A stretch of 60,210 nt of DNA, counting the filler, from Sphacelaria rigidula (Eukaryota), in NCBI GenBank assembly GCA_964200075.2. It is 7 parts of 7 records of this genome, joined end to end, with 100 filler letters (N's around TTAATTAATTAA, not from the genome) between each part and the next. Parts side by side here need not be neighbours in the genome. Positions count along the whole stretch, not along the records: positions 1 to 8,516 come from CAXNAA020010910.1; 6 more parts are not named here. One strand, written 5' to 3'. The translations under genes were made by a program, and so were the position numbers. The notes under the pieces were generated by a model, which did not search any database, was not told where the DNA came from, and saw only the letters and a program-made list of their open reading frames with translations. Below are positions 1 through 51,923 of the stretch, in pieces (position 1 is the first letter of the stretch; every line of letters starts with the position of its first letter).

Positions 1-225
1 ATCCAGGATCCTACACATGCTACATCTACTACGCCTTGGTGTATTTTGGCTACAGGGACGATCTAGCGGGAATTTGCCGGGAAACGGCTCGCGTTCCAGC
101 GGCGGCTTGCTTCGGCCCTTGCGAGTGTAGGGCGACGGCGATAACACGAACACGATTCATGCTTCAATACAACATTACGCTTCCGTGCAACGACACATCA
201 CCATACCCCGGGTGCGTGCGGCAGA

Positions 226-1010
226 CCTTCACTTTAGAGTCCCTTTTGACAAGAGCCCAGCCGAGATCACTCCGGTATCACCGCCGTAATCCAAGATCAA
301 CGTCACAGACACCGAAATGGATTGAAATTGGAAAGGCCCTAGGCACCGGGCAATCTATTTCAACGACGTCTCTTCTAAAATGGGGAATATCAACAAAATG
401 AGATTTGAGGAGCAGATCAACAAAATGAGTTTTAGGGAGGCTAGCCGGTATGCGACAAAAATCCGAGAGAAGTACCGTCCGCAAGTGCCTTTTATCATCA
501 TTTCTGCACGTACCGTCTTTCGACTATCCTCAATTTCTGCGGGCGGCGGCGTCGGATTCCATCGTTATTTGGAACAAACAAACGGCGATCCAACAACATT
601 TTGTCTAGGCTTCTACTCATCATGCTGGCACGGGTCCTGTGTGCATGTGACCCATCATTATTTTCAAGATGAAGGGATTCTTCAAAAATCGTGCTAGCGT
701 AAGAAGTAGAACCCTAATTTTGTCTCATTTGCGTCCGATGGGCGATGGTCTTCTCACTGCTATGTGCCTCGAGGCCGGTGCTTAAGCGACGATCTCCGGC
801 GCTGGTTTGTTCACCAGTGATGTGCTGAGGGGGCGATTAGCTGTTCACTACCCCGAAGAACACATATAAATTGATGAGATGGGATGAATTCTCTTGGTTC
901 GAAGATGTTTGAACAAGGGAGAAAAAATACATTACACAAGTACAGAAAGTACTGCAAATATCCGTCGGGCCTTTCAACCGGGTTGAAGCATGCATGATGC
1001 ACCCTTGGTG
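226..1010 (+). pseudogene. Decayed coding-like segment of unknown family
   Basis: The frame LHFRVPFDKSPAEITPVSPP*SKINVTDTEMD*NWKGPRHRAIYFNDVSSKMGNINKMRFEEQINKMSFREASRYATKIREKYRP has in-frame stops at 287-289 and 323-325. A second protein-like stretch with a stop lies at ~855-1010 (YKLMRWDEFSWFEDV*TREKKYITQVQKVLQISVGPFNRVEACMMHPW). Confidence 0.3.
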
Positions 1011-1960
1011 AACACTCGGCAGCGATGGAAGAAAAACTACTGCTGGCACTAGCACGCTCGTTACTCGTCGCCGCAAATCGGCCTCATCCACTCCAATTCC
1101 ACAATGATGCCATCTCGGTATCCAGCCCATTGCGACAACTCATGCTGCGTGACAACATCTCTACACACCTCCGATTTGTACGTTCGTATCCAGACCCAAA
1201 CCTATATGTTGACCTATCCTCGTTAGTCTTCAACTGCACCACTGCAATTCAAGACGCCAACGTCATCATTACCAGCATTATTATCGACATCACCATCGTC
1301 ATTGTCATCATCGACGCTGTGCTCGTCGGACGACTCGCACCATCCCGTGTCGCGTGTACCCTTTATCCACCTACTCTCGAACCCCGACCCACCTACAACC
1401 AGATCCCCTAGACTGACCAAGATAGGCCGTCTCGCACCGATCCTCCCGCTCCACTGTCGATTATCTGGGACTCTGACTGTCACTGCATGCTGACTCCCGT
1501 CGTCACTGCCAAGCGCGGCGGCCCCTTAAATGTCTTTACTTCCATCGTGTGGTATAGTGAAACTTATTTCGATGGCACCAACCACCCCCCCCCGCTTCCC
1601 ACGTCAAATAAAAGAACGGACACGTGTCTGCAACCTCCAAGTACGAGTTAAGGGCAGCATCTGTCTGACAGGCTTCCCCTCCAGGATCTAGCATGCGCCT
1701 TAGCTGTCTTGTCGATGCAGCCAACGCAAGGCGAACACGCTGCTCATCGAGGACGTGCTGTGGCACAAAATAAAAGCCTCTCCACGGGTGTTGTATACCC
1801 TTTCCTCACAGGGAAATATGCGGATACACAACTTGTTGGTCAGGCTTCGTGATGAGGTCCAGCTTGTTAACCTGATTGAGTCAAGAGTACTGCGGCGGGA
1901 ATCAACAATGGGTACGGCAAAGACAATCGGCGTCGACGTGCATCTCATTCAGTTCGCGAC

Positions 1961-2160
1961 GGGGAGAGAGGAGGGCGTACTCATTTGTTGCTTGCCTTAG
2001 TCGTTCGACCATTGACCACGCATTCCTTTCGAGACGAAGCACCGTTCCTACTCCTAGTAGAGACACCTCCAACATTCTGGCGCTCATTACGTTTTCTCAA
2101 AAGCTCAATAGGTTTCTTCCATACATTGCACAAAAACCTCGTACATATTTTATCCCCGAC
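1961..2160 (+). mobile_element. Dispersed short repeat family A (non-autonomous element, G-rich ends)
   Basis: GGGCGTACTCATTTGTTGCTTGCCTTAGTCGTTCGACCATTGACCACGCAT...; related copies at ~8250-8345 (-), 8617-8690 (+) and 14338-14507 (+). Confidence 0.8.
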
Positions 2161-3339
2161 GGGGAGAGGGGGGAGGGGGGGGGGAAGGGGGGGGTGTAGC
2201 AACCCGGCAAAGGACTCGAAAATAACCATGGTTCATTACTATATTTGTTCATAAAAAAACGTGGCGATCCCCAGGATACCGGGACGTGGATGCGCCGAGA
2301 ACTGGCCCCGCGGTATGAAGGCAGGAACACAACCCGGAAGCCACTAGTGTGGAGAACGTATAACAAATATTCCAGGAGTGCGGTGAAGCGGAGGAAGCAA
2401 AAACGCAGTAACGCGACGCAGCCAGAGCATCACACCACAGAAGGTCTACACGTCAACGGAAATTAATCAAGTATATACCAAAGCGCTATCGGAAAAGTGA
2501 GTGACGCTACGGTAGAGGGGAATTTTCTTTTCTGAGGTTAGTGCTGTGCAGAGAGCCCTTTATGTCATCCAAAACACGACTCATGAAATATGCGCAGGTA
2601 CTCCAGGATTACTACTCCAGAGTGATACGAGATAACCCGAACGAATCGCAAACGGGATTGATCTGACCCACGGTTTTGTGCATCTAGAATCGTTCGGAGC
2701 CCCTGAACCACACAAGAACTTGTGCGAAAATTACACCGCTACCGCAGCATTGCACTTGTGAGGATAGCGACGTGCACGAGGCGAGGGAAGAGAAAGTGGA
2801 AAAGAGGGGAATGGGGGTTACAGTCTTGTCATCACGTACCATCAGAGCGGGAGCAAAGCACCCCTCTGTATCCTGGTTCTTGTCGGTGGAACAATTCCAC
2901 CATAAAAGAGAAGATAAAGGAACAGAGCGAGAGAGAAATGTTTTCAACGTCGTCTCACCTCGAACACCTTCACTCATCCCGCACTCACGTACGTGCTGCT
3001 CTCACCTCCACCTTGCAGCCCAGGGCCTGAAAGGCGCCCTTCATGGTCTTTTCGGCCGAGTCTTCGGGACGCCGATCCATCAAGCTTGTCGAGGTAGTGT
3101 CCGTGGGCAACTCGGACGGGAGCAGTTTCGGCCCTACGTACGCTTCGCCGCTGGTATCATACTGCCGGCAAACACAACGCATGAGCACACGGTTGTCGGG
3201 ATCGTCGGGGTAAGTTTGATCTCGCGCTTCAGCTTTCGGTCGCGAATTACGCCGGCCGATCCGGTAACTACACAGCAGGTAAACGCGGCCACTGAAGATC
3301 CCTATACCCGCAGGTGGTGTTTGGTTTCTTGGGGTTTAC

Positions 3340-4813
3340 CTTGAACATCCCCGACATGAATGCCTTTTGGAATGCTTTCTCCATACGGCCTCGGACCTCG
3401 GCTGCGAGAGCGCCGTTTGCGAGGAAGAGCTCCGTGGAGCGACCGAGCTCAAGAGCGACCTCCAGTAGCTGTGTGCTCTCGACCCCGATACCCATGACGG
3501 CATCTCCTGCCATGGTGAACCTGTTCGAAGACGAGTGGCGTCAATCTAGCCCAGCCAAGGCAAGGTGCTGCAATATGCCCTGCCCGATTCGTCACTGATT
3601 GCCTATGCCGTGCTACAAATGTATCGGAAGTCAAAGTCGAAGGTATATGAGTACGTCATGTATGCACTATTAGGATCCGTCTGATATCCCAACCTCCCCA
3701 ACCTGACAATGGCCCAAGAGCCTCATGTCAGGAGACACTCGCGGGTGTTTCTGACCACAACGCGGACGAGAAAGTCTACTTCTCCATCATTTTTCACGGC
3801 TCTGCATATCTCGACGCCGCTCGACGGGAAAAAAATGACCTCTTTGCGTCGTCATATGTACATAACGACCGCAGGCGGGAAGGGAACCACTCAGGAAAGA
3901 CTAATCACCTGTTGACGAAGGTCGTCAGTATCCTGGGTGGGAACGAATTGATCGACCCGCCGATACGTCCGCCTTGTTTGTACATTAGCTTGTCTTCTGG
4001 CCCTCCGCCTATCTTCTGCCAGCAATATGGAACTTCGCCGTTGCTTCTGGTGCCATATGGATCGGCGAAGGTAACTCTCGGGTTTACCGTGAACGATTTC
4101 GCGTCGTCAGTGGGTTTCTTGTGTGCCACCATGATTGCTTCCACGTGAGGGTAGAAATGGTACTTCTCGTGTTTTTTTCGGGAACCTCCGTGGCGACCGG
4201 AGTACTCCACTAGCACGTAGTCGGCTTCAATCACCATGGAGGGGTCAGCAGCGATCGCACCTGCGAAGGGATGCGCGCCGCGGTGGATCGCAGCGGCCGC
4301 GAAGGGTGAGGGGTTAGGGGTGGGGTGTAAACATCGCCATGGGACGAGTTATTATCACAAGTTGAAACAAAAAAAGCGCCGTCCACAGGGATGGAATAAA
4401 CGAAGCTCGCGCCATCACTTTCCCCTGAGCGTGTCGCGGATATTGTTCGCTACAACTTGACCTATTTTTTTCATAAGTACAATTGTCGATCTTCGATCCG
4501 ACACCACGTCGGGTAATGGTGGGTACGTAATGTGCAGACCGTAGTACCTCGGATTCGATGTCCATATTGATCCCATGGCCGGGGAACTGCAAATGCGATG
4601 GTGCCTATCGGATGCAAGACTTGCAGCACCTTGTTCACGAACCGCCTTAGGTATCGCTTGTCATCGTTCGCCATGCTCAACATTGACGTTTCGGCGTCGA
4701 TGGAGACCAGGATTAGCTTTGGCTGTCTTTTCACAGGGAGTGGTTCTTGTTTGTCGACAAGAGCGCAGTTGCGGCGGAGTAGGTTCTCCTCGTGTACGCT
4801 CGTGTGATGAGCT
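3340..4813 (-). CDS. Spliced divergent beta-class N6-adenine/N4-cytosine DNA methyltransferase-like domain (N6_N4_Mtase fold), catalytic motifs degenerate
   Basis: Exons ~4813-4548, 4260-3909 and 3520-3340 are joined by phase-compatible GT-AG introns into one open peptide: ...NLLRRNCALV..PKLILVSIDA..KRYLRRFVNKVLQVLHPIGTIAF..HVEAIMVAHKK..VPYCWQKI..INSFPPRILTTFVNRFTMAGDAVMGIGVESTQLLEVALELGRSTELF..LAAEVRGRM. Motif order matches beta-class MTases (GDC, DLIxTxPPY, RVLKPGG, HEYILVFxK, FPxxLxxxLIxxFSxxGDxVLDPFxGSGTTxxAAxxLGR). Confidence 0.55.
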
Positions 4814-7470
4814 CTGTGCAGCGGAACAGTGCAAGCATTCAGCAGCATGGTGTGCTTCAATTCGGTCAGCGGTGGACGAGTGCAAGTCCTGTGGGGTACC
4901 GTAGGTATTCCTTTGAGGTTCACAACAGAAAAAGCACTGCGAGCGCCACAGCTTGTCTGGCAATGAGACGATCGTAATCCACTTCGTCCTTCACTGGTTC
5001 GGCTCATCACGACGATAAGTATCAATAGATGGTAGAGCCATTATTATTGTTCGATATGCCCGCACCTTCTCTCGTTGACGGTGGGACACGCGGGGGGGAG
5101 AGGAAGCATTGCTTTCGAAGACCTTTCCCCTTCTTTGGTTTCTCCTCGCCTCCGACGTCAGCTTCGCCCCCTTTCCTCTTCTGGCGCCCCGGCTCGTCCT
5201 CGGGGATGGGCACAGCCGCCTCGCAGGAGGTCTGATGCTTCATATCGCAGCATTGGTATCTGCCGGCCAAGAACCACAGGGCCGAGGTCAGGCGGTTAGC
5301 GGAGGAGCAGGCTAACCATTCGGAATGTAGAAGGGGCATGATCCACGTCTCAATCACTCCACACACCTTCGTTCGGGTCGGAAGCTCGCTCCGCGAGATC
5401 GGCCGTTCGGCACCGAATTGCCGCACACGGTTAGCATTCCGATTCATGCCCTTCATCCTCACCTGACATCGGTTGATGGATCGCCCGAGGGGCACAATTG
5501 ACTCCTGTGGCTGTCCACCTCCGAACGTTGAGGGTCGTCGTTATCTTCTCCGGATTCCTTCCCGTCTTTGTTACCGTCTCCCTTGCCACCCGAATTCGCC
5601 AACTTTATGCGTGCAACGGCGATGTTTACGTCGTCCCACCTTTTCCTCCATGCGTCGTTATACTGCCTCAGCGTTCCTTTTTGCGACATCTGCGAAACCG
5701 TGCGATGATGCAAAGCTCACGTGAACCAGAAACTCGCGTCGATGCTAAGCAACTGTCGGTTTACGACGTTGTTCAATGTTCAGAGACCCGATCGCGTGCC
5801 CACTACACCGCAAGTGATCGGCGTGCGTGAACAGCGTACGTTGCTCTTGCGATGCCCACGTTTGCGTTCGACGGCGGTCTGTCGTGCCCCATATTCGTGT
5901 TCCAAACCAGACGACCGGCACTCTGGCGAGCGAGAGTAGTGGGACCAAAATATTTGCATCACGGCAATATGTCGAAGCGATCCTTAACCTATGCCTTCCA
6001 GGCAATTTCGTCACCGACCCGTGGCCTGATTTATTCATCTCGCCTTCATCCGAAACAGTTTAGGTCGCTCTAGGGCGAACCCGGAACTCTGGGCGTAAGT
6101 AACTTACCATGTCTAGCCGCCGAAGGAGTTTCCCCCTACAGACATCCTCGAATTCCCTCATGGCTGCTCCGTTCTGTTCTTGTTCTGGCAGACTTGCCCT
6201 CATTTCATCTATGGTGTTGTCCACTGAGGTGATGTAGTCCGCGACAAACAGCTTGAAATCCTCCGCACCATATAGACCGCGGACCATTTCGTGAACTTCA
6301 CTGCTCGCATCGGTTTGGCCCAAGCACATCGAACGGCGACAAGGACTAAGAACAGACACACTATCCGTATATAACATTCATCTGCCACACGCGCGATGGT
6401 CATTACCGGCGAAGTAGCCTGTGGCGATCGCAGCGCTCCATCCCTGTCGAGGCGCATGTTACAAGACATTCGCACTCACTTCGCAAAAATGTCGGTCCAC
6501 GCCTGACGAGGGATGTGACTCTCGATCCGCTCCACCAGGGCTGCGGCTGTGAGTGCGTTTGCGGAGATTCCTCCCCAATCCTTCATTTTTGGTATTGTCT
6601 TATGCGTCTTGTGGAATCTGTGCACAACAAGCGGAGTCGATTGGTACGGTGATGTATATACTAGACCTTACGCTCTTGAAGAGTTGGCCTACCGGTCCAA
6701 AGGAACGATATATGGCGGTTCTAGCTGTATTGTACCATACGACAACACTATCTCTGACATTCAATTTTGGGGACCAGACGACAGAGCCTGCGCGAATGGA
6801 TGCATGCGCGCCGCGGTACACCGCCTCGTGGTTGTTGGGGACACAAACTCGCCTGTGAATGGTCAGCACTGATGGTCGCAGCGCAGGTTTGATAATTGCT
6901 GTTGGTGTACGCCGGCGATTTTACCAATTTACTGTTCAGGTAAACAGGTGACTGAAATGATCTACTGCCATTACTTGCCAGACATGTCTCGTTTCGAACC
7001 TTTTTGCGCGGTGCACGATGGCAGACGGTGGCTATCACGCGTCTTTACTCGACGCACGGTCGACGCCGGTGTCATTGTATACTTCACTCGGTTGGTTGCA
7101 TCAAATGCCACCGAAACATGCGACCAGGCTTCCACTTTTCCTACATCGTACGGTTGACTCAGGCGCACGGTACGATAAAAGATCATGGATCCCTCGGGCC
7201 GAGGTCGAAACCGACTGTGCGTACCTGACGAGCATGTTGATCGCGAGTGCCTGGGCCACAGGCTTGTCCCTCATGTCAGCAAAAGGCTTGCTCTTGAGAT
7301 AGGACAGCGAGATAAACCCGGGGTTGACGACGGGGTCCTCACACCGAAACGCCCAAGCAATGGCCTTCACAGCTTCTGGTGACGTCGCCATGCATGCCTT
7401 TTTCCAGTACCGCAGAGTCGACAGCGACGTGGGTTGTATGCCCAGCTGGCAGTTTCGGGGGGCGTGAGAG
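4814..7470 (-). other. Upstream exon-like fragments of the same unrecognised minus-strand gene or element
   Basis: A run of protein-like minus-strand ORFs (7101-7391, 6971-7186, 6060-6377, 5459-5713, 5022-5495), several ending at GT donor-like sites. The exon chain could not be resolved and may be partly decayed. Confidence 0.35.
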
Positions 7471-8249
7471 GCGCATCGGAGGACGTTGAGATTACATGTC
7501 GTTAGCGGACACCACGGATTGTCCTACATTTCCTGGTTCCAGTCATTTACGCTGTGAACAGAAACAAGAAATGTTCTCGGACCCAAGAGGAAAATATAGC
7601 CCAAAGAGGAAGTGCTCCTCAGGAGAGGGGATATTGCGGGTAGTGCCCGTAGGCCCATATATGAACAACGCTGTACCCGAAACGTTACCTTGTCGATAAC
7701 CAAGTGCAGAGCTAAGCGATGGCAAAATCGAATGATGGTAGTGTGTGCGATAAAACGGCCAATATCCGCACGCCCAAAGTAAATAGGAGTGAACCCGAAA
7801 CAAAACATAAAAGTCGAAAGTTAAGTGCCAAATGAAGAGATGGAAAATTGGAATGATGAACTTCGCGATTGCACTCATTGTGCGTCACAAATGATAAGGG
7901 CGTGTCTTTGCACTGTTTGTTGAATCGAAAAAATGAAGTTCAGCGAAGGAATTTCATGTGATGGGCCCATTACATTTCTGAGCCCAGTTGTCTTGATCTG
8001 CTTTTTTTATTGGTAATGGCGCGTGGATAAGAAGTGGCCAATGAAAAAGTATGCTTTAGCGAATGGAACCATGCCATCGGAAGGCACGGAGGGACACCTG
8101 AGTCCTATGTCGAAAACAACCGCGCCAGGTGTCGACCGTTAACGGAACCGTCACTCCCCACACAACTCATTCCCAGTTCATCCCGGTATCCTGCTGCATC
8201 GAACACAAGTTCGGCAATAGATACACTGCGGACATTTTATACGATAGCC

Positions 8250-8345
8250 CCCCCCCCCTTCCCCTCCGTCTCGAAAGGGATGCGTGGTCAATGGTCAAAC
8301 GACTAAGGCAAGCAACAAATGTGTACGCCCCCCCCCCTTCCCCTC
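8250..8345 (-). mobile_element. Repeat family A copy
   Basis: Reverse complement of the core at 1961-2040 (CGAAAGGGATGCGTGGTCAATGGTCAAACGACTAAGGCAAGCAACAAATG). Confidence 0.8.
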
Positions 8346-8354
8346 CGGTTAGTC

Positions 8355-8516
8355 ACCCATGAGGCAGTGTATGTGCTGTGGCTGTCTCTGGAAGTGGCCA
8401 TACCACAGAATAAAGCAACTCATTGTTGGCTGACATCCAGATGCAAGATTATCAGTAGGCTTCGGGCCGAACAATCTTAGCAGGATGCAGCTCACCCTTG
8501 ATGCGACTCGCCGAGC
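8355..8516 (+). mobile_element. Dispersed repeat family B copy (truncated by contig end)
   Basis: CATGAGGCAGTGT...CTTCGGGCCGAACAATCTTAGCAGGATGCAGCTCACCC matches 35580-35740. Confidence 0.8.
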
Positions 8517-8616
8517 NNNNNNNNNNNNNNNNNNNNNNNNNNNNNNNNNNNNNNNNNNNNTTAATTAATTAANNNNNNNNNNNNNNNNNNNNNNNNNNNN
8601 NNNNNNNNNNNNNNNN

Positions 8617-8690
8617 GGGGGGAGCGTACTCATTTTTTGCCTGCCTTAGTCGTTTTATCATTGACCACGCATCCCTCCTGGGGCGGGGGG
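8617..8690 (+). mobile_element. Repeat family A copy at contig start
   Basis: GGGGGAGCGTACTCATTTTTTGCCTGCCTTAGTCGTTTTATCATTGACCACGCATCC. Confidence 0.75.
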
Positions 8691-9156: not shown

Positions 9157-12100
9157 CTGGTCGGCGCCCAGCATTCCCCTCAGCAGTTCTTCTCTCTGCG
9201 GCAACGCACGAAACACTTCGCTTGGTGGGAACGGTGTGTGCAGGAACAGTCCAATGCGCGCCACCTACGACCATCACCGAAAGGCACGAAACACGTACAT
9301 CATTAGTATTTTATCTTTTCATTATTATTATAATCATAAATAAACATCATTATTACTTCGGCACATTAACCTCATCTCTCGAACCTGTGGTCACAGCCGT
9401 TGGTCCGCCTCTACAGTACCGTCATTTCCATTCCTTGCGTTGGACTATAAAAAAAAAAACTACTTCTGGGTTGGTCGAGATGTGGTTAAAACACAAGTAT
9501 ATTGTAACGCAAGCGAATTGCCACCCGGATAAAGAGCAGCCCATCGACAAAAATATAGTGAAGGGAGATGGCTAGGGAAGGACCCCCGCGAGACGGATCC
9601 AGCGACGCAGAACTACACGATTTGGCCGGTAATAAAAGGACGAAACAATACTTCCACGTGCAGTATCACGACAACAAGGCCACAGATTGCACGTGGAGCG
9701 ACCCCCGGGGGCCTCTTCATTTGTATGAGCACCATGAGGTCCATTGAGAGCTGTCGGAGCACACGCGTGGCGATCTCCCGGTCACAGGGATATATTTATT
9801 TTGCGATATGTCACCCCGGTTTTATGATCCGTGGGCGGGACCTCAGTCGTGAGGCCGGCCAAGCTCGTACTTGGGGGCGTGGGGGGCTCTGACCTTGTTG
9901 TCCAATCTATGCTCTGTTAATCTGCAATGTGAGCTCGTTAGCATACCTTCACCGTCCGCTCGAGGAAGGCCGGCAGGATAGCAAGGTGGAAGCCGTGGAC
10001 CCAAATCATGTCGCCTTCGTGGAACACCTCCACCACCTGCTCCCCGAGAAAACGAAAGGGGGGTCAACTGTCTTGAGGCGGATTACGATCTCTAAAATAC
10101 GTTTGCAATCCCGTCAAAAACCAAGGACGTGAGATGGGGAAAACAAAAGACCTGCATATTCACTTTTTTTTTCATGGAGGGGGGGCGGGGGAATTCGCAG
10201 GTTAAGAATATGATTTTCGAGCGTGCTACAGAAGAAGTTTTCGTACTGCCTAGTCTCGGGAGCTTAAGCTCAGTTTAATGCGACCATCGCAAAATGTATG
10301 AGCTAGAGTGGAGGACAAGGCAGACTTTGCGACAAGGTCGACAAACTATAGACTACTGTATCGATGACTGTTTTCAATTATACATGTCATTATGAGGCCT
10401 CGTTTTTTGTCCTGTTATACAACTGACCACCATGTAACTCATGCATCGATAGTTGCAAATGTCGAGGTGGACAGCGCCATTTATGTTATAAGACGATTCT
10501 AGTCAACACGAAAAATATGAGGGAAAAAAATCAGCGACAACGCCTTGACATTCCGACACAGGTAGACCTCATGTCGCACAAATCCTACCGCGATTTCAGT
10601 GCTATATCCTTTTCTCGTGGTTAGGATGGGGGGGGGGAAGGAAACTCGTGATCCTGCATGCCGTAATCACAGGACCTTTGACCTCGCATCCCTGCAAAGC
10701 CGGGACGGACCACGCTGGGTTTTCGTCGGACGAGGCTCGTAGTCACCAAGCGCGGAGCGCCATCATGAGTTCGGCGAGTCGCATGAAGGGTGAACTGCAT
10801 CCTGTTAACATCGTTCGGCCCGAAGCGTACTAGATATCTTGCATATGGGTGACAGCCTATAATGAGTTGCTTCATTGTTTGGTATTGCCATTTTCAGAGA
10901 TAGCCACCGGTTACACACTGCCTCATGGGCATCTCACTGTGGAGGGAGGAGGGGGGATCCAGAGCTGATAAATGTGCGACACCTGGGTATAGCAGTCTTT
11001 CGCCTCGTGTCGAGTGCGTTGCCTTCTAGACAATGAACTGCATCAATGAGCAGTCGTATTCGAAAAACAAAGGAGTTTCTGACGCACCGTATCTCGACCA
11101 GAAACACGGCCCCACCCACCCATCCTTCAGTACGCGGGAGCAAACAGCACCCTCAGGTCTTGACTTTCATGTTCAAAGGCTGGCGAATCTACACAAACTT
11201 GTACTTTATGAGTACCCTATCGGCCAACGGCGGACAGCATCCTGTGCTCCAAAATAGAAGTATACCTTATCTCTGAAGGCCTTGTTGACCTGTTTGAAAG
11301 CTTGCCAGCCTTCAGCTATAGCAGAAGGGTCCAGCAGCGAATCGGGAAGGTCGTCGTACATTTCCAGGATGTTGTGCATCACCTGTCAAGCACAAGATAT
11401 ACACAGTTCATGTACGGCATAAAATACCAGTCTTGTATCTCTATCGCCGCAAAAAAATATTCTCTCAAGTCTTGAAAAAATAAAAAGCGATAACTCTTTA
11501 TTATACTTGCACTCTCCTAACAGCATGATCGATGAACTCCTCTATTCGTGTCCTCATGCTTGGTTGTATTGATGTTTCGCGCGTAGGGCGAACGATGCCT
11601 CACGTGCTGTTGAGCACATTATTTCGATCCTTCCCGAACCAACAGCCACGGTTAAAATATGTCCCTCAAGGCATACCAGTATCTCGACTATTAGTACCGT
11701 GGGGGTCTTTACATTCCTCTTCCCAGCCGCAAGTAATCAAGCGTCTCGCCACGAAAAAGGTACGGTCTACGTAAACAGCTCGTTCGCGGTACGATAAACC
11801 ACACCCCACTAGAGTACAAAAATAAAAAACAAAATCGAAAATTCTCACCGGCCACAAGACGCCCTTGCAATACTGGTAGTAGCACTGATGAGACAACGCC
11901 TCCGTCAGGAAAACGGGGACGCAGTTCAGCTTCGAGAGGGCCTGCACGACCGCAGGCTGCAACAGGGGTGACACAAGACACGATCAACACAAGCACACAC
12001 GCAAGTGTTAGCAAAACAATTGCACAGCATGTCAGAACGGGGGAAATGTACCCATGATCTTGCATGCCGTAGTCATATGACCATTGACCTCGCATCCCTA

Positions 12101-16873: not shown

Positions 16874-17899
16874 CTGCAAAAAGGGAGAGGGAGAGGGGGA
16901 GGGGAGGGGATACATTACCAAGAAGAGAAACAATGGAAGGAAATATGATAACGACAACACGATATTCCCGTGAAAAATAATGATGTTCCCAGAGAACGTG
17001 CTGACCACTACGTCTTGTTTGACTGACACCGCCATAGCCCCCCCCCCCCACGAGGGAGCGGGAGAGGGGATAGGGATGAAAGCATATTTGCATGGCCCAA
17101 TGGACGCTGCGAAAAATATGAAACTGCGATTTNNNNNNNNNNNNNNNNNNNNNNNNNNNNNNNNNNNNNNNNNNNNTTAATTAATTAANNNNNNNNNNNN
17201 NNNNNNNNNNNNNNNNNNNNNNNNNNNNNNNNCCGGCTGATGCGCCCACATACACCGAAAGGTGTAGACTGGCGTCCAGAATGAATGGGATGACAACACA
17301 CAACAACAACACATCCTATCTTGCAGACCACCACGCCAGATACCACTCGTTCACACAGCAAAGCAAACCCCACACAACTCATCCTCAGCTACCACCGCAA
17401 CCCTGCAGCACAGAGCACGAGTTAGGCATGATGTGTTTATTTATTTATTGCGAAAAGTTGAGCATCTTTGTTCATGATGGGGATTGGGGACGGAACTGCA
17501 TGATAGGGTGGACGACCGACTTGCGTGCACTCATGGACAGTGCAGGTAAGTACAAAACTGCACGTTGTTCAAGCCCTTTTCACGTGGCACTGTAAGCAGG
17601 AAGTATAGATAGTCCTGTGATGTCTGCAATTCACGTTGCCTGCTCCTCTTTCACATCCCACTGTATGAAACCCGCACACCCACATTCAGGCACACTATAT
17701 ACATACAGCGCTGACAGTATAGAGTAGTACTGTACTACTATAGACAAGCGAATAAGTACCGCTTCGCGAATTTTACTGTCTTTTTTCGATCGAATTCTTG
17801 CAATTTCGCTAGGACCCAACTCGCGAGAAATGAACGCACTCGCTCAATTCAATTCCACGGCACTTTTTGTTTAGATCGAAAAGTTATGTGTTGAGACGG

Positions 17900-18260: not shown

Positions 18261-21153
18261 GATACAGGTGGGGCAGCAGAGTGGGTTTGCGGGCTGCTTC
18301 ATGACATGGATCTACCTTGCTACTCGCACACCTACTACGATATATCAGCGGCGAAGCCGGAGCTACGAGCAAGGTAATTCGATCAGGTCTACGATTTAGA
18401 ATGATGGAAACTTGTATCGGAACCCCTCAAACCGACGGACAGGTGGGTGGCGAGATGCATATGCCGATAAGAAGGCGACAGTGCGTATGCTCAGTGCAAC
18501 CAGCGATACTGTAGTGTACAGGTATTGTACCTTACCGACGCAGAACACCATCCATGCTATCAGCCAATGATTCCATTTGCTGTCAGCAAAGTTACAGCAG
18601 AGTAGGGTATAGCGACGTTCTCTGTATATGCAAACACCCTTCCTTTTTCCTCCCTTGAACACCACCTGTTAGTAACTGCCATCTTGATATGATTGTGTTG
18701 TGTTGACAGTTGTCGGCGAAATAAACATTCCATGATTGCTGATCCGATTTGCCCGCCTTGCCTGTCATCAGCGTGTACACCGTGCTGGAGCCTGCACCTG
18801 GCGCGGACGGAAAGGAGTGCCTCGTCTTGACCACATCCCAAGACCTCTCTGGCCCGGCAGAGCAGTTGCTAGATACACCTACATTCATGGGCTTGTCGAT
18901 ATCCTTGAGCATCCTTAAACAGCTCAAGAACAATGTGGGATGGATGTCGAAGCGCGTGATTCTTCTCATTGTGGATGAGCAATCGCAGAGCGTCGACGTG
19001 AGCCGGTTACATCTTGGGGTGAAGTCGTTTGTGGATGACTACCACCTTCACACCCTAGATTTGCTCAAGAGGTGACAAACGAATCTAAGACCGCGTCGCC
19101 TGCATCTCGTAGATTATGTTATGTCTCGGTGCGATCATGTACGTCGTCATGAAACGTGGTAGTACTTGATCATGTCATTATCTTATTTTGGTGTTTCCGT
19201 AGTAGGTCTCATCCCCTCGGCCGAACCAAAACTCGAGTCACTGTCCCGCAAAGGTTATTTGTACGCACACTTACGGGTCTCCTCTGATTGACATAACCTG
19301 CCTCTGTATCTCACGTTGCCTCCACCCCGAAATCCTCTTGACCACCGCTATGCAATCACTTTTGTCTACTATTCGCTCCAGGCACCAAACGGACTCGACC
19401 ACGATGCGCTCCATTCGCCACAGCGGCGTGATACGTGCTGCGATCTCCCTAGATCTCACCGGTTCATGTCTGCCGAACACAGTTCAGCTGCTCACTACAG
19501 GCAAGTTCCCTCCCCTTCTTGCGTTTATTTTTGCATGAACATCGAATGCTGCTCTAGGTGTGCTGGACCATGCGACGACTCGAGAAGTCACTCGTCGAAT
19601 TCCACGCGAAGTGCACATGCCAGCGCTCGGCAAGTACACGGCTGACAGAATGCAGTCATTTCGCCGTATATGCCGGTATTGGCGACAGGTATAAATGGCG
19701 AACTCCCTAACATGGACCTCCTGAACGCTGCAGTACACCAGCTAGATCGTCAGGGAATATCCGTCGTGCTCGACAGGTGCTCTAGTTCCTTGGACAGAAC
19801 CGGGCATCACTCGTGTGCAGATGCGGCGGCAGCGGCGGAAATAGCCGTGTCCCGTCTCATTCCAAGAAGCACGAGACGAAGCGCCCTTCAAAGTTACTTA
19901 GATCGGTTGTTCACCATGCTTGGATTCATGGGGTCTGTGGCGATGGGGCCAAGTGGGCCGCATGCGCACTTCTTGCGTCACAGCATCGACGCTTTGACGA
20001 TTAAAAGTGTCGACGAGGGTGGGCGCGGCGGTATGGAGAAGGGCGCCTGTTTGAAGTCACTTCGGGGTGGCACCGGGGCTTTGTTGAGCCTCGTCCGAAA
20101 TGTCTCCAACCTGGAGGAGGAGCTACATCATTCGTTTTTTGCTTACATCATGTTGTCCACCAAGGCCTTCGTGTCTATAGGTACGTGTTCGCATTTATAA
20201 TGATTATCCGTTCGGCCGTACTATCCCCTGTTTTTCCCTGCTGCCTGCCCGCACATGTTCATGCCGTATCGAGTGCATGCTGCAGAACCCGATGCGTGGT
20301 GTTGAATATTCAGATTTTCTTGGTACTCGCACACCGATTTTGGAACGAACTACAACACTCAAATTTCACATTTCATAGTCGCCAGATTTGTAGTTTTCAT
20401 TCCATCTTTTATGCGCTGCTACGACTTTGTTGAATACTCTCCTTTTTTTTCCAAACATTTGCAGGTGAGTACGCCTACGCCATGGTCCTCTTGCTCTTCC
20501 CGCTAGCGATGCAAGCCGGGAGGCTCCCCCGCCTGTACAGGGACAACACGCTCTTTGGTGCCGTGCTCATTGTCGGGACGTTCGAAGGATTTGGCGCGCT
20601 ACTATTGCTAGCAGTATCTCTCGCACCTCAAGTATCGGCAGAAGTGCTTCGTTGGTACTTGAACGTGGCAACCCTTATGGGGTACCTACTGGTGGTGGCC
20701 GTGCGGTTACTCGTCCATCCCAGACGTTCAACATCACCAAGACTGGTCTCAGAAACAAACGCCCTCCTGCAGTGGGAGGGACCTATAATGGTCATCGCTT
20801 GTATCATGGCGTACTTCTGTTCTGTAACCGCGCTGCTGAACTGGCCACTGGCAGCATTGCTTGCGCTTACCCACGGACCCATGGTGGTCATGGCAAAACC
20901 GCTCCGCTTATCAAATCCAGGTAGTTGGTGTACGTTACCCTGCATGTTGTTTAGTATGCCGGCATGTTGGCCGTTGTTGTTTGGTGCCGCCGCCGGCCGT
21001 GGGTCCGGCGGGGTTGAGGTTATTTTGCAGTGGCTTCGATGGTACAGGGTGTCGGGGCTGATGAACGTGCCTCTCCTGTGTCTGCTTTCCATCCCAGCGC
21101 ATCTGACAGCAGTTTTCGTCTTGATCAGCCCCCAGGGTGCCAGGAAAAAATAA
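18261..21153 (+). CDS. GAA1: GPI transamidase subunit GAA1/GPAA1; 5' exon(s) not identified
   Basis: Exons 18261-18373, 18772-19071 (SVYTVLEPAPGADGKECLVL, WMSKRVILL), 19382-19500 (GVIRAAISLD), 19689-20180 (GINGELPNMDL, HAHFLRHSIDALTI, RNVSNLEEELHHSFFAYIM..FVSIG) and 20465-21153 (EY plus multiple TM segments, ending RKK*). Confidence 0.92.
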
Positions 21154-25103: not shown

Positions 25104-25957
25104 TTGTGCTTTCTTTAGTTCCCGTAGGTCACCGGTACCCGCCGCAGAACGCTCCAGATAAAAACGCGTGGTCTTATAAGGCACTGGGAAACGATTGGAG
25201 ATGGATTCTCGTCCACCGGTGTACCAAGCCTTGCTATATGCCATGGATCACAGCGGTGTACAACTGTCTCATAGTAAAGTGTTTTTACAGCCAAGAGTAC
25301 GTCTTTGGTTTTGCATGACAGCAGATTAGAGCCTGACATAGATATACCCCCTTATACTATATGATATTTCATATACCTTAGTCATGTTTTTTCTGAGGGT
25401 ATATGATATAAAATACTTGTATTTTTCATTAATTTTCATCAGATACCCTATATGGAGCTTTTTCGGCAAAATATGACTAAAAGGGTGTATGATATGTAGT
25501 ACACGGTTCCCCTTCGGCCCTTCGGGAGGTTGGTACGGGCCTCCCGGGGGTGACGCAAGTCGAAAGTATAAAATATACTTCGTACGAGTATGCCTTTTCA
25601 GTGCGCTACAAAAGAAGGGGTGGGAAAAATGCCTTGCTGGCAGAGAAAACTCGGCAAAAGTGGTGAACATGTGAAATGATACATGTACATAATACACATG
25701 GGTTGAATGAAGGGAGAAAAAGCGCGCGAGTCATCGCTTTGTCCGCTTNNNNNNNNNNNNNNNNNNNNNNNNNNNNNNNNNNNNNNNNNNNNTTAATTAA
25801 TTAANNNNNNNNNNNNNNNNNNNNNNNNNNNNNNNNNNNNNNNNNNNNGCGTTTGAGGGGGTGCCGGGCCATGTGTCCGTGGGATTTGGGTGGTCGGTCA
25901 CTGGTGCCCCCCCCCCCCCTTCGTGTCATGCGGGCCTTCGCAAAATACCACCGACAG

Positions 25958-33983: not shown

Positions 33984-34464
33984 GTACGTTTTTTTGTCTG
34001 TTGTGAAAATAATCACCGACTGGGTGCCTGATGTGTGACAAGACGGCAGTCGAGAGTCATACTTGTCTTCTTCAACCCGATCTGGATTCATATTGGTTTC
34101 ACTCCTTTTCTAGTATTACAGTATGGCTTGCTTGCGCAGCATTACGCCGTGAATACATCACCTTTCATTTCTCGACAAGGAAAAAGACAACACACTTCAA
34201 CAGGGAATCCTGAAACATGGGAATGGACGTTTTTCGTTGGAACGAGACCCGTTTGGAGGTACTCGAAGAAGTCAGGCGAAAAGGTACTTAATCCCCCCAA
34301 AGAGAACGCACCTCCACCACCGACCCACCCACTCGAACCCCCTACACCAACCCAACAAATGCGANNNNNNNNNNNNNNNNNNNNNNNNNNNNNNNNNNNN
34401 NNNNNNNNTTAATTAATTAANNNNNNNNNNNNNNNNNNNNNNNNNNNNNNNNNNNNNNNNNNNN

Positions 34465-42980: not shown

Positions 42981-44789
42981 NNNNNNNNNNNNNNNNNNNN
43001 NNNNNNNNNNNNNNNNNNNNNNNNTTAATTAATTAANNNNNNNNNNNNNNNNNNNNNNNNNNNNNNNNNNNNNNNNNNNNATGAGATAAGGGGCTCCTAA
43101 CAATTCTTACCTCAGAAAGTATTTCTGTACCCCTACCGTAGCATCACTCGTCTACGGTGTAATAAATTTACACACGCTGTTGTGTTCTCCGACGCAAATG
43201 ATGACAGGCGTGTGCTTCTCGTATCCGTCTTCTACTCTTTCAAAACGTTTGACTGCCCACATTTTGTGTTCGTAATCTGTTGAACCCGCACCATGACCGC
43301 TTGGAAAATGATTACAGAACGAGGCTCCGGTGTCCATCTGAGGCCGCTCCGAGGGTCAAAAACGCGCCCTCTGTCGTCCACCTTGGACGCGTGAATGCGT
43401 GTGTGTGTGACACAAAACACGAACATGAACACCGGTTCACTATTGAAAGCACAAGCCGCACATGGTGATGGGGTGTGGAGGGTAAGCTGGCCATACTCAC
43501 ACACGAACGGCGAATAATGTATCTGTCGGAGGGAAACGAGATAGGGCACACAGAGCGCCCTTTCGGCACTACGGTTTTCTGTTTATGCTGCGCTGCTGAA
43601 GCAGCTTCTCTGCGGGAACTAGAGGGCCACAACACTGCAGACACACGGACGTGCAACCACACCGCACCAACGGCACACGCATTTTTGATATTTAATCTAC
43701 ATATCTCTTGGAAACCCACGAAATAAAAACGGTAATTTCTCGACCAGTTCGACGCCCTCAACCTTCACGAAAATTGAACGATCAACACGAACCTTTCCTC
43801 ACCCCCATACACAGCGATGATCACACCTAGATTTTCTTGACATACAAGTATCACCCTGAAAAAAAAAAGAGAAGATGAGTGAAAAAAAAACCATACAAGC
43901 GAAGGTGATGTCGACACCAACGCCTCGATTTTTGTTGCAGTACCATTAACATATCGAAGATCCTAAATGCAAAGTACCGCGGGTATTTGCCCTCAATATC
44001 ACCCGACGTTGTGTCACCACACAGAGGGGGCAGCAACGAGCACTACCCATCGAGGCTTAGAATACAGTACAGCACAGTACAACGGGGATATTGCCGTTCT
44101 CCTGTCCGGCCGGAAAGATCACACAAACGCTACAAGAGCAGCAAACGAGAAACACTTTCGGGCCGAACGAGCGCTCGTCTGTCAAGTACAACACCAATTC
44201 TGCTGAAACAGACCTCGTGCTGGGCTACACCATACGTATCTTACTGCAAGCAAGGACATCTTCGGGGTTTCCCGCACCAAACGTACCATGCCCTAATCCC
44301 CCATAACGATGTGATGTTTTTGAGCCATACCGAGCGTATCATACCGCTAGCAACGATTCGTGTGGACGATACTTCACACACAGTTGCCGCAAAACATTAT
44401 GTAGGGCTACTTCGCGCACACTCACCCCTAAAACCACCCGAAAATCTCCATGAACCATGCATCTCATACAACTACGATATGCTTCGGCTGTGCTGCACTC
44501 ATTGACATTTGCACCGCTAGCGACATGTGTCTATATTAATGTATACATAAATATATCGTATCATACCTGGGGCTATTCTCCGCATATTTTTCCCGCAAAC
44601 CCACATGAAGAGCTATACATGCCGTACACATCGAATCATATCTGTGCACCGTCTGCGTCCTACTTTACCGCCCACGGGATGAAGAAAAACACTAACTCAC
44701 TACCGTAGAAGAAATGTGTATATAAGACCCCTGTGTGATCAGTCTCAAGAGTTTCGAAAAGTCATCCTCCGGGGGTCATACTCCCGATG

Positions 44790-50818: not shown

Positions 50819-51923
50819 CTGTTTAAGGCCGTTCCGAATTATTTCACGGTGAAGTGGTTGTTTCACAGTTCGAGATTCGCGCGAGGGGTCATTATCCAAC
50901 ATGTGGTAGGTGTATATGTTGGGGAAGGAGGGGTACGGCTGTCTGTCACATGACTCATTATAAAGCATTGGTTGCCGATCTCAGCATAGAAACTGCCACC
51001 CATGCTTATTATTACACGAAAGTACGAATAAAAGAGATAGTTCGCTACTTCAGTGCACCAGCGTATTGGCATTTCTACACACATGCGTCATTTCCTCGCA
51101 CAATAAACTCGTGGGAGGCGATTGGATACTCGCACGAGTTGTTGTGAAACAGCACCGCGATGAATGAACGGAAAATGGGCTATCGCTGCATACACGACGC
51201 ACCCACGCCTTTTTTTTGGGGGGGGGGGGGTGTCTTCAACATTCAAGATACCTGGATCATGACCGTAGGTCTCGGGGTTTTGGCGGTGAACACACATCTG
51301 TGATCTGCGGCTGGAACGACAGAGTATCGAACGTTCTACAGTAGGCTACATCTCATAAGATCCGATAGCAACTGTCGGCTTGTAAGTGTCTTACTTTTTG
51401 GTGCTTTTTGTTTTCCCCTAGCCCCAAGGGTTGATCGCCGGACACGGGCTGGTTGGAGGTTTGCGTGGTTGGTTCTAGCAGGTAACTGCGGTATCGTGGT
51501 AAGTCGTGAGATATGACACACGAGTATCACCCACGGGGGGGGGGGGCGGGGCCGATGGCGGCGGGGAGGGGCGGGTAGACACACAAGGTAGAAACNNNNN
51601 NNNNNNNNNNNNNNNNNNNNNNNNNNNNNNNNNNNNNNNTTAATTAATTAANNNNNNNNNNNNNNNNNNNNNNNNNNNNNNNNNNNNNNNNNNNNTGCCA
51701 GACTGTCAGGATCTTGTATCCACTAGCATTGCTACTGTCTGTACGGGGATGTTGCCCACTTGTCGGGTACGTGGGGGAGGGTCCATGGCAGAACGCAGCG
51801 GTCGCGTGAGATAGGCTTGACCTTGTCGAGCTTTTCGGACCGGCAAACGTTCAGCCTAGACCCTCACATATATGGTGGGGCCTAGATGTTGTTTACTTTC
51901 TGGTTTTCTGCGAATGTTCATCC

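What the first reader, a model, noticed from the sequence alone, without database searches (positions are those of the whole stretch)
3340..4813. Intron-containing, bacterial-type beta-class DNA methyltransferase-like domain with eroded catalytic and SAM motifs in an algal genome
Seen: three minus-strand exons (~4813-4548, 4260-3909, 3520-3340) splice through canonical, phase-matched GT-AG introns into one open peptide of about 260 aa that no single ORF in the track shows. Known: beta-class N6A/N4C MTases (Pfam N6_N4_Mtase) run GDC / DLIxT-[DS]PPY / RVLKPGG / HEYILVFxK / VW / FPxxL..F[ST]xxGDxVLDPFxGSGTT..AAxxLGR / IAxxR. Each has a counterpart here in the same order: LRRNC, KLILVSIDA, QVLHPIG, HVEAIMVAHK, YCW, FPPRILTTFVNRFTMAGDAVMGIGVEST..VALELGR, AEVRGRM. 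The PPY and FxGxG residues are missing. Inference: a horizontally acquired MTase that gained introns and became a pseudo-enzyme (DNA or chromatin reader), perhaps carried by an undescribed large transposon. Domesticated beta-class MTases are rare in eukaryotes (bdelloid N4CMT is the known active case), and the model brown alga Ectocarpus is reported to lack canonical 5mC.
Basis: partly seen in the sequence, partly recalled or inferred. Interest (0 to 1): 0.85.

Follow-up and report, generated by a model that had tools for sequence, protein, structure and literature searches.

The report
Dead DNA-methyltransferase-like gene in an alga
A spliced, transcribed gene in what is probably a brown-algal genome encodes a very diverged copy of a bacterial-type DNA amino-methyltransferase domain that has lost its catalytic and cofactor-binding motifs, so it probably binds something rather than methylating it.

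Summary
Minus-strand exons 4813-4548, 4260-3909 and 3520-3340 have canonical AG/GT borders and join in phase into an open 266-aa peptide. They are part of a larger gene: further exons 3161-3006 and 1889-, with the stop two codons into the last exon, and upstream exons.

RNA-like contigs show the joints 4548>4260, 3340>3161 and 3006>1889. Every listed contig retains the proposed intron 3908-3521.

Pfam, NCBIfam, PHROGs and PDB profile searches on single exons find nothing.

A profile of the joined peptide plus its few homologues aligns collinearly with a PF01555 (beta-class N6A/N4C MTase) alignment. hhalign gives probability 94.4 %, P 9e-8, score 56.9. The highest control score was 23.3, over 120 shuffles, the reversed profile, MT-A70 and two unrelated families.

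DPPY is replaced by DAET and FxGxG by GVEST. Both replacements are conserved in all orthologue fragments found (3 of 3 and 4 of 4 sequences).

Verdict: a conserved, expressed, catalytically dead MTase-fold gene. The transposon idea is unsupported, the horizontal origin is untested, and the function is inferred.

The parts
4548..4813 (-). Exon 'E1'. It holds the motif IV position (VSIDAE instead of DPPY) and the helix/strand segment VLHPIGTIAF.
   Evidence: AG/GT borders. The acceptor at 4813 and the join to 4260 are seen in RNA-like contigs. Homologue ORFs P0019 (79 %) and P0020 (53 %) diverge after ...RIRG. hhalign of this exon alone scores 22.4 at template positions 63-86.
3909..4260 (-). 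Exon 'E2'. It holds the EAIMVAHK segment (motif VIII-like), a short TRD-equivalent insert with the family's invariant T-x-N...D-x-x-G residues, and the FPPRIL..VNR helix (motif X).
   Evidence: 8 true homologue fragments among 11 hits in 1.84 billion representatives. The Sphacelaria rigidula gene models P0003 and P0016 run from E1 into E2 without a break. The two nearest ESM Atlas clusters are PF01555, score 0.89, a lead only.
3521..3908 (-). Proposed intron 2 (GT..AG, phase 2). It is retained in every listed RNA-like contig. If retained, the frame stops at TGA 3907-3905.
   Evidence: X1 record 5 runs unbroken 3340-4258; X2 records 10 (3455-3734) and 11 (3842-4253) cross the borders unspliced.
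3340..3520 (-). Exon 'E3'. It holds GDAV (strand 1), GVEST in place of FxGxG (motif I), ALELGR, and L in place of the motif II acidic residue.
   Evidence: P0013, P0014 and P0015 (90, 83 and 69 % identity) are conserved up to ...SGMFK and diverge after it. Joint 3340 > 3161 is present in X1, X2 and X7.
3006..3161 (-). Exon 'E4' (52 codons, phase 0/0), part of the C-terminal tail.
   Evidence: Joints 3340 > 3161 and 3006 > 1889 with GT..AG ends in X1, X2 and X7, and not in DNA run X5. The frame is open.
1881..1889 (-). Start of the last exon: two codons and the stop. The 3' UTR runs on, at least 390 nt being covered by a 999-nt contig.
4995..5180 (-). Candidate exon 'C' (basic, pI 11.6). Its 3' part, 5126-4995, is the best candidate for the 132 nt spliced onto 4813. 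It contains an in-frame ATG at 5041-5039, which could be an alternative start. The borders are inferred, not shown.
   Evidence: Donor GTGAAG at 4994. The frame is open with both exon B and E1. Depth arithmetic shows that the 132 nt do not lie on exon B.
5463..5689 (-). Upstream exon 'B' (acidic, Gly/Lys-rich). It is on the same strand. Its link to E1 is not shown.
   Evidence: RNA-like contigs join 6108 > 5689 (X1 record 6, and X7 record 27, which repeats it) and carry 87 nt more after 5463 (X1 record 6, X2 record 13).
6108..6300 (-). Upstream exon 'A'.
6480..6586 (-). Inferred first coding exon 'U', with ATG at 6586-6584.
   Evidence: It is in phase with exon A and has donor GTGAGT. RNA-like cover stops between 6491 and 6707. 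The join itself is not shown.

Best explanation
The three exons are the core of a real, spliced, transcribed nuclear gene. It is lineage-restricted, and the one named relative is from the brown alga Sphacelaria rigidula. The product is 336 aa if translation starts at ATG 5041, or about 558 aa if the upstream exons belong to it.

The product carries one domain that descends from the permuted (beta-class) N6-adenine/N4-cytosine DNA amino-methyltransferase fold (Pfam PF01555 type). The fold-forming elements are kept in beta-class order: strand 4-5 region, EAIMVAHK segment, short TRD-like insert, FP..L helix, GD.V strand, ALELGR helix.

The residues that do chemistry or hold S-adenosyl-methionine are all replaced: DPPY by DAET, FxGxG by GVEST, and the motif II Glu by Leu. 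The replacements are themselves conserved among orthologues.

Shown: gene structure (except intron 2 and the exon before 4813), remote homology, motif loss, conservation.

Inferred: the protein no longer methylates. It works by binding, most likely nucleic acid or a partner protein, through the conserved TRD-equivalent surface of a basic domain (pI 9.4) next to a basic linker (pI 11.6). This would make it a non-catalytic adaptor or reader, in the way dead MTase paralogues work elsewhere.
For: **Gene structure**
- Phase-matched canonical splice sites and an open frame.
- GT..AG joints in RNA-like contigs X1/X7 and X2 that are absent from DNA run X5. Depth is zero over intron 1 and over 6708-8000 in the RNA-like runs.
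- The stop lies 2 codons into the last exon.

**Conservation**
- 8 true fragments for exon 2, at 31-82 % identity.
- 3 fragments for exon 3 and 2 for exon 1.
- Similarity ends at the exon borders.
- The NCBI models from Sphacelaria rigidula join exons 1 and 2.

**Homology**
- hhalign of the joined profile against 31 non-redundant PF01555 domains: probability 94.4 %, P 9.1e-8, score 56.9, query 54-254 against template 64-258.
- Controls: 60 column shuffles, maximum 23.3; 60 block shuffles, maximum 22.5; reversed 14.7; MT-A70 14.8; two unrelated real families 14.3 and 13.3.
- Scores add up collinearly: exon 1, 22.4; exon 2, 25.6; exon 3, 18.6; exons 1+2, 37.3; exons 2+3, 44.3.
- Independent lead: the ESM Atlas features of exon 2 place it nearest to two PF01555 clusters, score 0.89.

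**Motif loss conserved**
- VSIDAE in 3 of 3 sequences.
- MGIG[VG][ED]xTQLL in 4 of 4 sequences.
Against: **Sequence-to-profile methods fail**
- Pfam, NCBIfam and PHROGs give 0 hits at E <= 10 for single exons.
- PDB profile searches with the exon 2 and exon 3 alignments find no MTase.
- The joined peptide scores only 3.0 bits against my PF01555 HMM, and 1 of 200 shuffles scores higher.
- The family HMM does not rank MTase ORFs above others: 7 of the top 25 are MTase ORFs, Mann-Whitney p 0.02.

**Limits of the homology evidence**
- Homology rests on one profile-profile method with a shallow query profile (Neff 1.75).
- The motif IV alignment lies outside the confident core and appears only at mact 0.05.
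- There is no usable 3D model. Exon 2 alone folds at pLDDT 40.7.

**Limits of the gene model and function**
- The exon 2 > exon 3 splice is not seen in RNA-like contigs, which retain the intron in two samples.
- The retained form would end the protein before the SAM-side half.
- Function was not tested in any way.
Confidence: 0.66

Rival explanations
1. The resemblance to amino-MTases is chance or convergence. The gene is real but encodes a lineage-specific domain of another, unknown fold.
For: No sequence-to-profile method detects PF01555. Every diagnostic motif is absent. The ESM Atlas scores are below the 0.9 level at which that tool counts a hit as more than a lead.
Against: The hhalign score of 56.9 compares with a maximum of 23.3 over 120 shuffles, the reversed profile, MT-A70 and two unrelated families. 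Each of the three exons aligns on its own to the collinear place in the template, and the scores add. The Atlas lead names the same family independently.
Confidence: 0.12
2. The productive product is the intron-2-retaining form. The protein would end at ...VNR and contain only the N-terminal ('catalytic-side') half plus the TRD-like insert. Exons 3-5 would be untranslated.
For: All listed RNA-like contigs over 3340-4258 keep 3908-3521: X1 record 5, and X2 records 10 and 11. A stop follows the donor immediately. 5 of the 7 homologue ORFs that reach this point also stop right after ...R.
Against: A stop right after the donor follows from the donor consensus AG|GT[AG]A in this phase. With splicing, the frame stays open for 112 codons and ends in the last exon. 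A retained form would leave two spliced introns downstream of its stop. The exon-3 peptide is conserved up to the exon end and not beyond. The MTase alignment runs across the junction. Contigs drop rare or shorter paths, and 12 joints were not listed.
Confidence: 0.12
3. It is a decaying relic, either a pseudogene of a transposon-borne or virus-borne MTase or a passenger of a mobile element, without host function.
For: PF01555-type ParB-MTase accessory genes exist in an Ectocarpus Sola1 transposon (PMC12477816, passages read). Repeats lie in and around the gene. Sphacelaria has two near-identical partial models. Gene callers have produced only fragments: no homologue longer than 163 aa, and none in the 'longer' search.
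Against: The frame is intact over at least 6 exons, with canonical sites and spliced transcripts. Protein-level conservation extends down to 31-41 % identity with the intron position kept. The replaced motifs are conserved. There is no second copy in the window. Pfam finds no ParB domain in the upstream exons. The flanking inverted pair is a genome-wide short repeat, with one arm inside intron 4.
Confidence: 0.06
4. It is still an active methyltransferase that uses unorthodox motifs.
For: The Asp of motif IV is kept (DAET), and the overall fold elements are kept.
Against: There is no glycine loop, no motif II acidic residue and no PP[YFW]. No known amino-MTase works without them; this rests on established knowledge of the motifs, not on a test here.
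Confidence: 0.03

Closest known systems
Bacterial and phage beta-class (permuted) N6A/N4C DNA amino-methyltransferases, Pfam PF01555 N6_N4_Mtase (reference used here: E. coli YhdJ and 30 other domains)
   Same: The order of fold elements is collinear: IV - V/VI - VIII - TRD - X - I - II. hhalign gives probability 94.4 % over about 178 columns. The spacing from GD to GR is the same.
   Different: There is no Pfam-level match. DPPY, FxGxG and the motif II Glu are replaced. The gene has at least 5 spliceosomal introns inside the domain region, a eukaryotic gene context and extra N- and C-terminal regions.
Bdelloid rotifer N4CMT (PMC8885841, passages read)
   Same: A PF01555-type permuted MTase living as an intron-bearing eukaryotic gene, and restricted to one lineage.
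   Different: N4CMT keeps its motifs, is recognised by Pfam, methylates DNA in E. coli and carries a chromodomain. The gene here has lost the motifs and has no recognisable reader domain.
ParB-MTase accessory gene of the 21.5-kb Sola1-1_Ec32 transposon of Ectocarpus (PMC12477816, passages read)
   Same: A prokaryote-type N4C/N6A MTase domain present in a brown-algal genome, and a possible source lineage.
   Different: That protein is 1104 aa with a ParB domain, is predicted active and sits in a multi-copy transposon. Here Pfam finds no ParB domain and there is no sign of mobility.
Catalytically dead MTase paralogues that act as partners or scaffolds: METTL14/Kar4 in the MT-A70 clade and the inactive DIRS1 MTase domains (PMC4738411, section 8 and passages read); DNMT3L (recalled)
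   Same: The MTase fold is kept, the active-site motifs are disrupted, and the gene is conserved. This is the working model proposed here.
   Different: They belong to a different MTase family. hhalign against MT-A70 scores 14.8, which is noise. No active partner is identified here.

Membership tests
PF01555 N6_N4_Mtase (beta-class amino-MTase) | Match to the family profile at or above the curated threshold | tested here: not met
   Pfam hmmscan of each exon ORF gives 0 families at E <= 10. The spliced peptide could not be handed to that tool. Against my own HMM of 31 PF01555 domains it scores 3.0 bits, and 1 of 200 shuffles scores higher.
PF01555 N6_N4_Mtase (beta-class amino-MTase) | Remote homology with the permuted order of motifs (IV before X-I) | tested here: met
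   hhalign gives probability 94.4 %, P 9.1e-8, score 56.9. The controls reach at most 23.3.
PF01555 N6_N4_Mtase (beta-class amino-MTase) | Motif IV (D/S/N)PP(Y/F/W) | tested here: not met
   The aligned position reads DAET in a low-confidence part of the alignment. VSIDAE is present in 3 of 3 sequences.
PF01555 N6_N4_Mtase (beta-class amino-MTase) | Motif I FxGxG (SAM loop) and the motif II acidic residue | tested here: not met
   The aligned positions read G-V-E-S-T and Leu, in the confident part of the alignment. The same replacement is in 4 of 4 sequences.
PF01555 N6_N4_Mtase (beta-class amino-MTase) | Class I MTase 3D fold | tested here: inconclusive
   Only exon 2 could be folded, and it gave pLDDT 40.7 and pTM 0.26, which is unusable. 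No fold search was run on it.
PF01555 N6_N4_Mtase (beta-class amino-MTase) | SAM binding and methyl transfer to N6-A or N4-C | not testable with these tools
   This needs biochemistry.
MT-A70 (PF05063) | Profile similarity | tested here: not met
   hhalign scores 14.8, probability 0.2 %, against 4 bacterial MT-A70 domains. PF01555 against the same alignment scores 44.2.
Transposon-borne ParB-MTase accessory genes | ParB domain; location inside a multi-copy element with terminal repeats | tested here: not met
   No Pfam hit in the upstream exons. No second copy in the window. The flanking inverted pair 1958-2039 / 8264-8345 is a very high-copy short repeat, with one arm in intron 4. Genome-wide copy number was not testable, because no genome is held.
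Pseudo-enzyme (dead MTase paralogue under selection) | Active-site loss together with conservation of the rest, across species | tested here: met
   dN/dS was not computable, because no DNA of the relatives was obtained.

The most novel reading that the evidence does not exclude
A brown-algal lineage domesticated a prokaryote-, virus- or transposon-derived beta-class amino-MTase. It then killed the chemistry and kept the protein as a nuclear binding module. That module would be either a reader of 6mA/4mC-type marks or a non-catalytic partner or antagonist of the still-active ParB-MTases carried by Sola-type transposons. This would be a host-versus-transposon epigenetic module in organisms that lack canonical 5mC machinery.
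Probability: 0.1. Interest if true: 0.8.

Novelty: new variant of a known kind. Interest (0 to 1): 0.55.

Why it matters
PF01555-type amino-MTases are very rare as resident eukaryotic genes. In the papers I read, the described cases are active or predicted active: bdelloid N4CMT, and the transposon-borne ParB-MTase reported for Ectocarpus, with similar proteins reported there for green and red algal transposons.

This would be a conserved, intron-bearing, transcribed and catalytically dead derivative that standard domain annotation cannot see. It would add a pseudo-enzyme branch to that family. It would also give a concrete candidate for non-5mC chromatin or nucleic-acid biology in brown algae.

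The case also shows that such domains can stay hidden because each exon on its own falls below detection.

I found no description of it in five searches. Supplements and figures of PMC4738411, which tabulate eukaryotic MTase clades, could not be seen.

Tried and rejected
**Family and structure searches that found nothing**
- Pfam, NCBIfam and PHROGs on single exons and on homologue fragments: nothing.
- PDB profile searches with the exon 2 and exon 3 alignments: only chance hits, E >= 0.49.
- tblastn of exon 2 against phages: chance-level hits only, E >= 3.
- ESM Atlas on exon 1: low scores. Unnamed clusters score 0.82-0.85; named hits at 0.76-0.79 are assorted class I MTases. This is a weak lead only.

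**Searches for more relatives**
- A 'longer' search for full-length relatives of exon 2: none.
- Related loci in metagenome contigs and in viral contigs: none. Two alignment-based tries were rejected by the tool as too little conserved.
- No whole genome is held for the window.

**Expression**
- No RNA holder was listed on record. The runs I call RNA-like are so called only from their joints.

**Structure**
- AlphaFold on the exon 2 alignment gave pLDDT 40.7, so no fold search was run.
- The spliced protein could not be given to the fold, Pfam or database tools, which accept only unaltered window sequence.

**Other checks**
- The family HMM against 379 bacterial ORFs was not discriminating.
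- Rfam and tRNA scans of 1-8516: nothing.
- Earlier findings of this scan: nothing.

**Exon before 4813**
- A direct join of exon B (5463) to 4813 is in phase, but I rejected it as the observed form. The bin depth over 5406-5622 is fully explained by the exon-B contig alone.
- Enumerating intermediate exons gives 855 open solutions, so that approach does not resolve the structure.
- A 56-nt contig joining 5168 to 4812 has non-canonical ends and depth 24.2, and is seen in X1 only. I set it aside as a low-complexity artefact.

**Hits dropped**
- The three repetitive proteins P0002, P0005 and P0009 among the 11 hits were dropped as low-complexity matches.
Full report
**1. Observation**

On the minus strand, 4813-4548, 4260-3909 and 3520-3340 are each bounded by AG upstream and GT downstream. 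The first exon ends with one base of a codon and the second starts with two. The second ends with two bases and the third starts with one. The joined frame is open for 266 codons, and the other two frames are full of stops. No single ORF covers it.

**2. The gene is larger**

Public runs holding this stretch were laid on 1500-8000. Three runs (X1, X2, X7) behave like cDNA:
- They carry joints with GT..AG ends on the minus strand that the DNA run X5 lacks.
- They have zero depth over intron 1 (bin 4321-4537) and over 6708-8000, where X5 is even at about 25-28.
- None of the runs is on record as RNA.

The joints shown are 4546 > 4258 (X1 record 5), 3340 > 3161 and 3006 > 1889 (X1, X2, X7), and 6108 > 5689.

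With exon 3161-3006 and the last exon starting at 1889, the frame runs on and stops two codons into the last exon. That is the usual place for a stop.

Upstream on the same strand lie exons 6300-6108 and 5689-5463, plus an inferred first exon with ATG at 6586.

Contigs of both samples carry 132 nt spliced onto 4813. By depth arithmetic these 132 nt do not lie on exon 5463-5689. The best candidate is 5126-4995, with donor GTGAAG. It is either the 3' part of a basic exon 5180-4995 that keeps phase with both neighbours (a 558-aa product) or a first exon with ATG at 5041 (a 336-aa product). This part is inferred and unresolved.

**3. The weak point: intron 2**

Every listed RNA-like contig keeps 3908-3521: X1 record 5 is unbroken over 3340-4258, and X2 records 10 and 11 cross both borders. 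In that form the frame stops at once.

I still think the spliced form is the productive one, for three reasons:
- The downstream frame is open for 112 codons and ends in the last exon.
- The exon-3 peptide is conserved in 3 of 3 non-self relatives (90, 83 and 69 % identity) exactly up to the exon end, and not beyond it.
- The methyltransferase alignment runs straight across the junction.

Contigs drop minor paths, and 12 joints were not listed. Retention is nevertheless a real observation in two samples and may be regulated.

**4. Relatives**

A full HMMER pass of exon 2 over 1.84 billion representatives gave 11 hits at E <= 1e-3.
- Three are long repetitive proteins, which I dropped.
- Eight are fragments of 98-163 aa, at 31-82 % identity.
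- Seven of the eight reach the end of exon 2. Five of those stop right after the final Arg, as expected from a donor AG|GT[AG]A in this phase.
- One cluster is named: 'unnamed protein product, partial [Sphacelaria rigidula]'. It has two members, and both run from exon 1 into exon 2 without a break.

Exon 1 has two relatives (79 and 53 % identity) that diverge right after the exon end.

Nothing longer and nothing intron-less was found, and nothing turned up in viral or metagenome contigs. So this is a small, lineage-restricted family of split genes that gene callers mostly miss.

**5. What the domain is**

Single exons give nothing in Pfam, NCBIfam or PHROGs, or in PDB profile searches.

I built a reference of 31 non-redundant PF01555 domains. 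It came from E. coli YhdJ, 80 related loci, and PF01555 matches in 31 bacterial genomes.

The sequence-to-profile results were weak:
- The joined peptide scores only 3.0 bits against that HMM, and 1 of 200 shuffles beats it.
- The only aligned piece is the FP..L helix at the end of exon 2 together with the GD.V strand at the start of exon 3, on the motif X/I region.

The profile-to-profile comparison is clear. The query was the joined peptide plus 12-14 fragments.

| Comparison (hhalign) | Score |
|---|---|
| Joined profile vs PF01555 (probability 94.4 %, P 9.1e-8, 177-178 columns, query 54-254 on template 64-258) | 56.9 |
| 60 column shuffles, maximum | 23.3 |
| 60 ten-column block shuffles, maximum | 22.5 |
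| Reversed profile | 14.7 |
| Joined profile vs MT-A70 | 14.8 |
| PF01555 vs MT-A70 | 44.2 |
| Joined profile vs two unrelated bacterial families | 14.3, 13.3 |
| Exon 1 alone | 22.4 |
| Exon 2 alone | 25.6 |
| Exon 3 alone | 18.6 |
| Exons 1+2 | 37.3 |
| Exons 2+3 | 44.3 |

Taken alone, each exon aligns to its collinear place in the template with a marginal score, and pairs add up. This explains why exon-wise scans see nothing.

An independent lead comes from language-model features of exon 2, which place it nearest to two PF01555 clusters (score 0.89, below the tool's 0.9 level).

Against the homology: the family HMM does not rank bacterial MTase ORFs above other ORFs. The only fold attempt, on exon 2 alone, was unusable at pLDDT 40.7.

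**6. Motifs**

The positions that matter for chemistry are all changed:

| Element | Usual residues | Here | Conservation in relatives |
|---|---|---|---|
| Motif IV | DPPY | DAET (low-confidence region of the alignment) | VSIDAE in 3 of 3 sequences |
| Motif I | FxGxG | G-V-E-S-T | MGIG[VG][ED]xTQLL in 4 of 4 |
| Motif II | Glu | Leu | 4 of 4 |

The family's invariant residues are instead Y, GG, AH, T-x-N, D, G, G and P. They sit in and around the short insert where active enzymes have the target-recognition domain.

**7. Mechanism**

Shown: a transcribed, spliced, conserved gene, and a domain remotely homologous to beta-class amino-MTases that lacks every catalytic and SAM motif.

Inferred:
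- It cannot methylate.
- Selection keeps the fold and the TRD-like surface, so it works by binding.
- The domain (pI 9.4) and the candidate linker exon (pI 11.6) are basic. This fits nucleic-acid binding but is weak evidence.

The nearest working models are dead MTase paralogues that serve as partners or scaffolds: METTL14/Kar4 and the inactive DIRS1 MTase domains (PMC4738411, section 8 and passages read).

**8. Origin and mobility**

A prokaryotic, viral or transposon origin is likely in principle, because PF01555 is essentially prokaryotic or viral, and an Ectocarpus Sola1 transposon carries a ParB-MTase (PMC12477816, passages read). No donor was found, and kinship to that transposon gene could not be tested.

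Nothing here points to a mobile element:
- There is no second copy in the window.
- Pfam finds no ParB domain.
- One DNA contig spans 2681-5197 with no differences, at the depth of its neighbour (depth is not a copy number).
- The inverted pair 1958-2039 / 8264-8345 belongs to a very abundant short repeat, and one arm lies in intron 4.

**9. Known or new**

PMC8885841 (passages read) states that bdelloid N4CMT has no eukaryotic homologues. PMC4738411 (section 8 read; figures and supplements not seen) lists permuted eukaryotic clades, none of them from brown algae in the text I read.

Five full-text searches found no description of this family.

I rate it a new variant of a known kind: a pseudo-enzyme offshoot of PF01555 resident in a eukaryote. 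Interest is moderate. The homology is good but rests on one method, the function is untested, and one junction is unconfirmed.

Noticed in passing
window 8517-8616, 17133-17232, 25749-25848, 34365-34464, 42981-43080, 51596-51695: There are 100-nt spacers of the form N44-TTAATTAATTAA-N44 every 8616 nt. The window may therefore be seven 8516-nt pieces, or masked at regular steps, and adjacency across these points is not assured.
   Followed up: partly
window 1958-2039; also 8264-8345 (inverted), 8619-8676, 10636-10693, 12042-12099: A very high-copy short repeat of about 60-80 nt. Summed DNA-contig depth is about 1.3 million in bin 1934-2150, against about 27 nearby. It looks like a MITE or SINE, and one copy sits in intron 4 of the gene. 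A second repeat at about 2585-2801 has depth about 40,000.
   Followed up: partly
window 3521-3908: Intron 2 of the gene is retained in RNA-like contigs of two samples, while introns 1, 3 and 4 are spliced. This may be regulated intron retention that truncates the protein before its C-terminal half.
   Followed up: partly
window 4972-5405: A Lys/Arg/Glu/Gly-rich low-complexity stretch with raised DNA depth (204-310 against about 27). RNA-like contigs of both samples break here: 87 nt lie after exon B and 132 nt before 4813. A 56-nt contig joins 5168 to 4812 with non-canonical ends, in X1 only.
   Followed up: partly
window 19646-20200 (+): An open frame matches the Gaa1-like GPI transamidase component (PF04114, E 4.6e-27). 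It is an ordinary eukaryotic housekeeping gene fragment, but it lies beyond a spacer.
   Followed up: no
window 3236-3452: DNA-contig depth rises to 131.7 in this bin, against 27.7 on both sides, so a short repeated piece lies in or near intron 3 or the end of exon 3.
   Followed up: no
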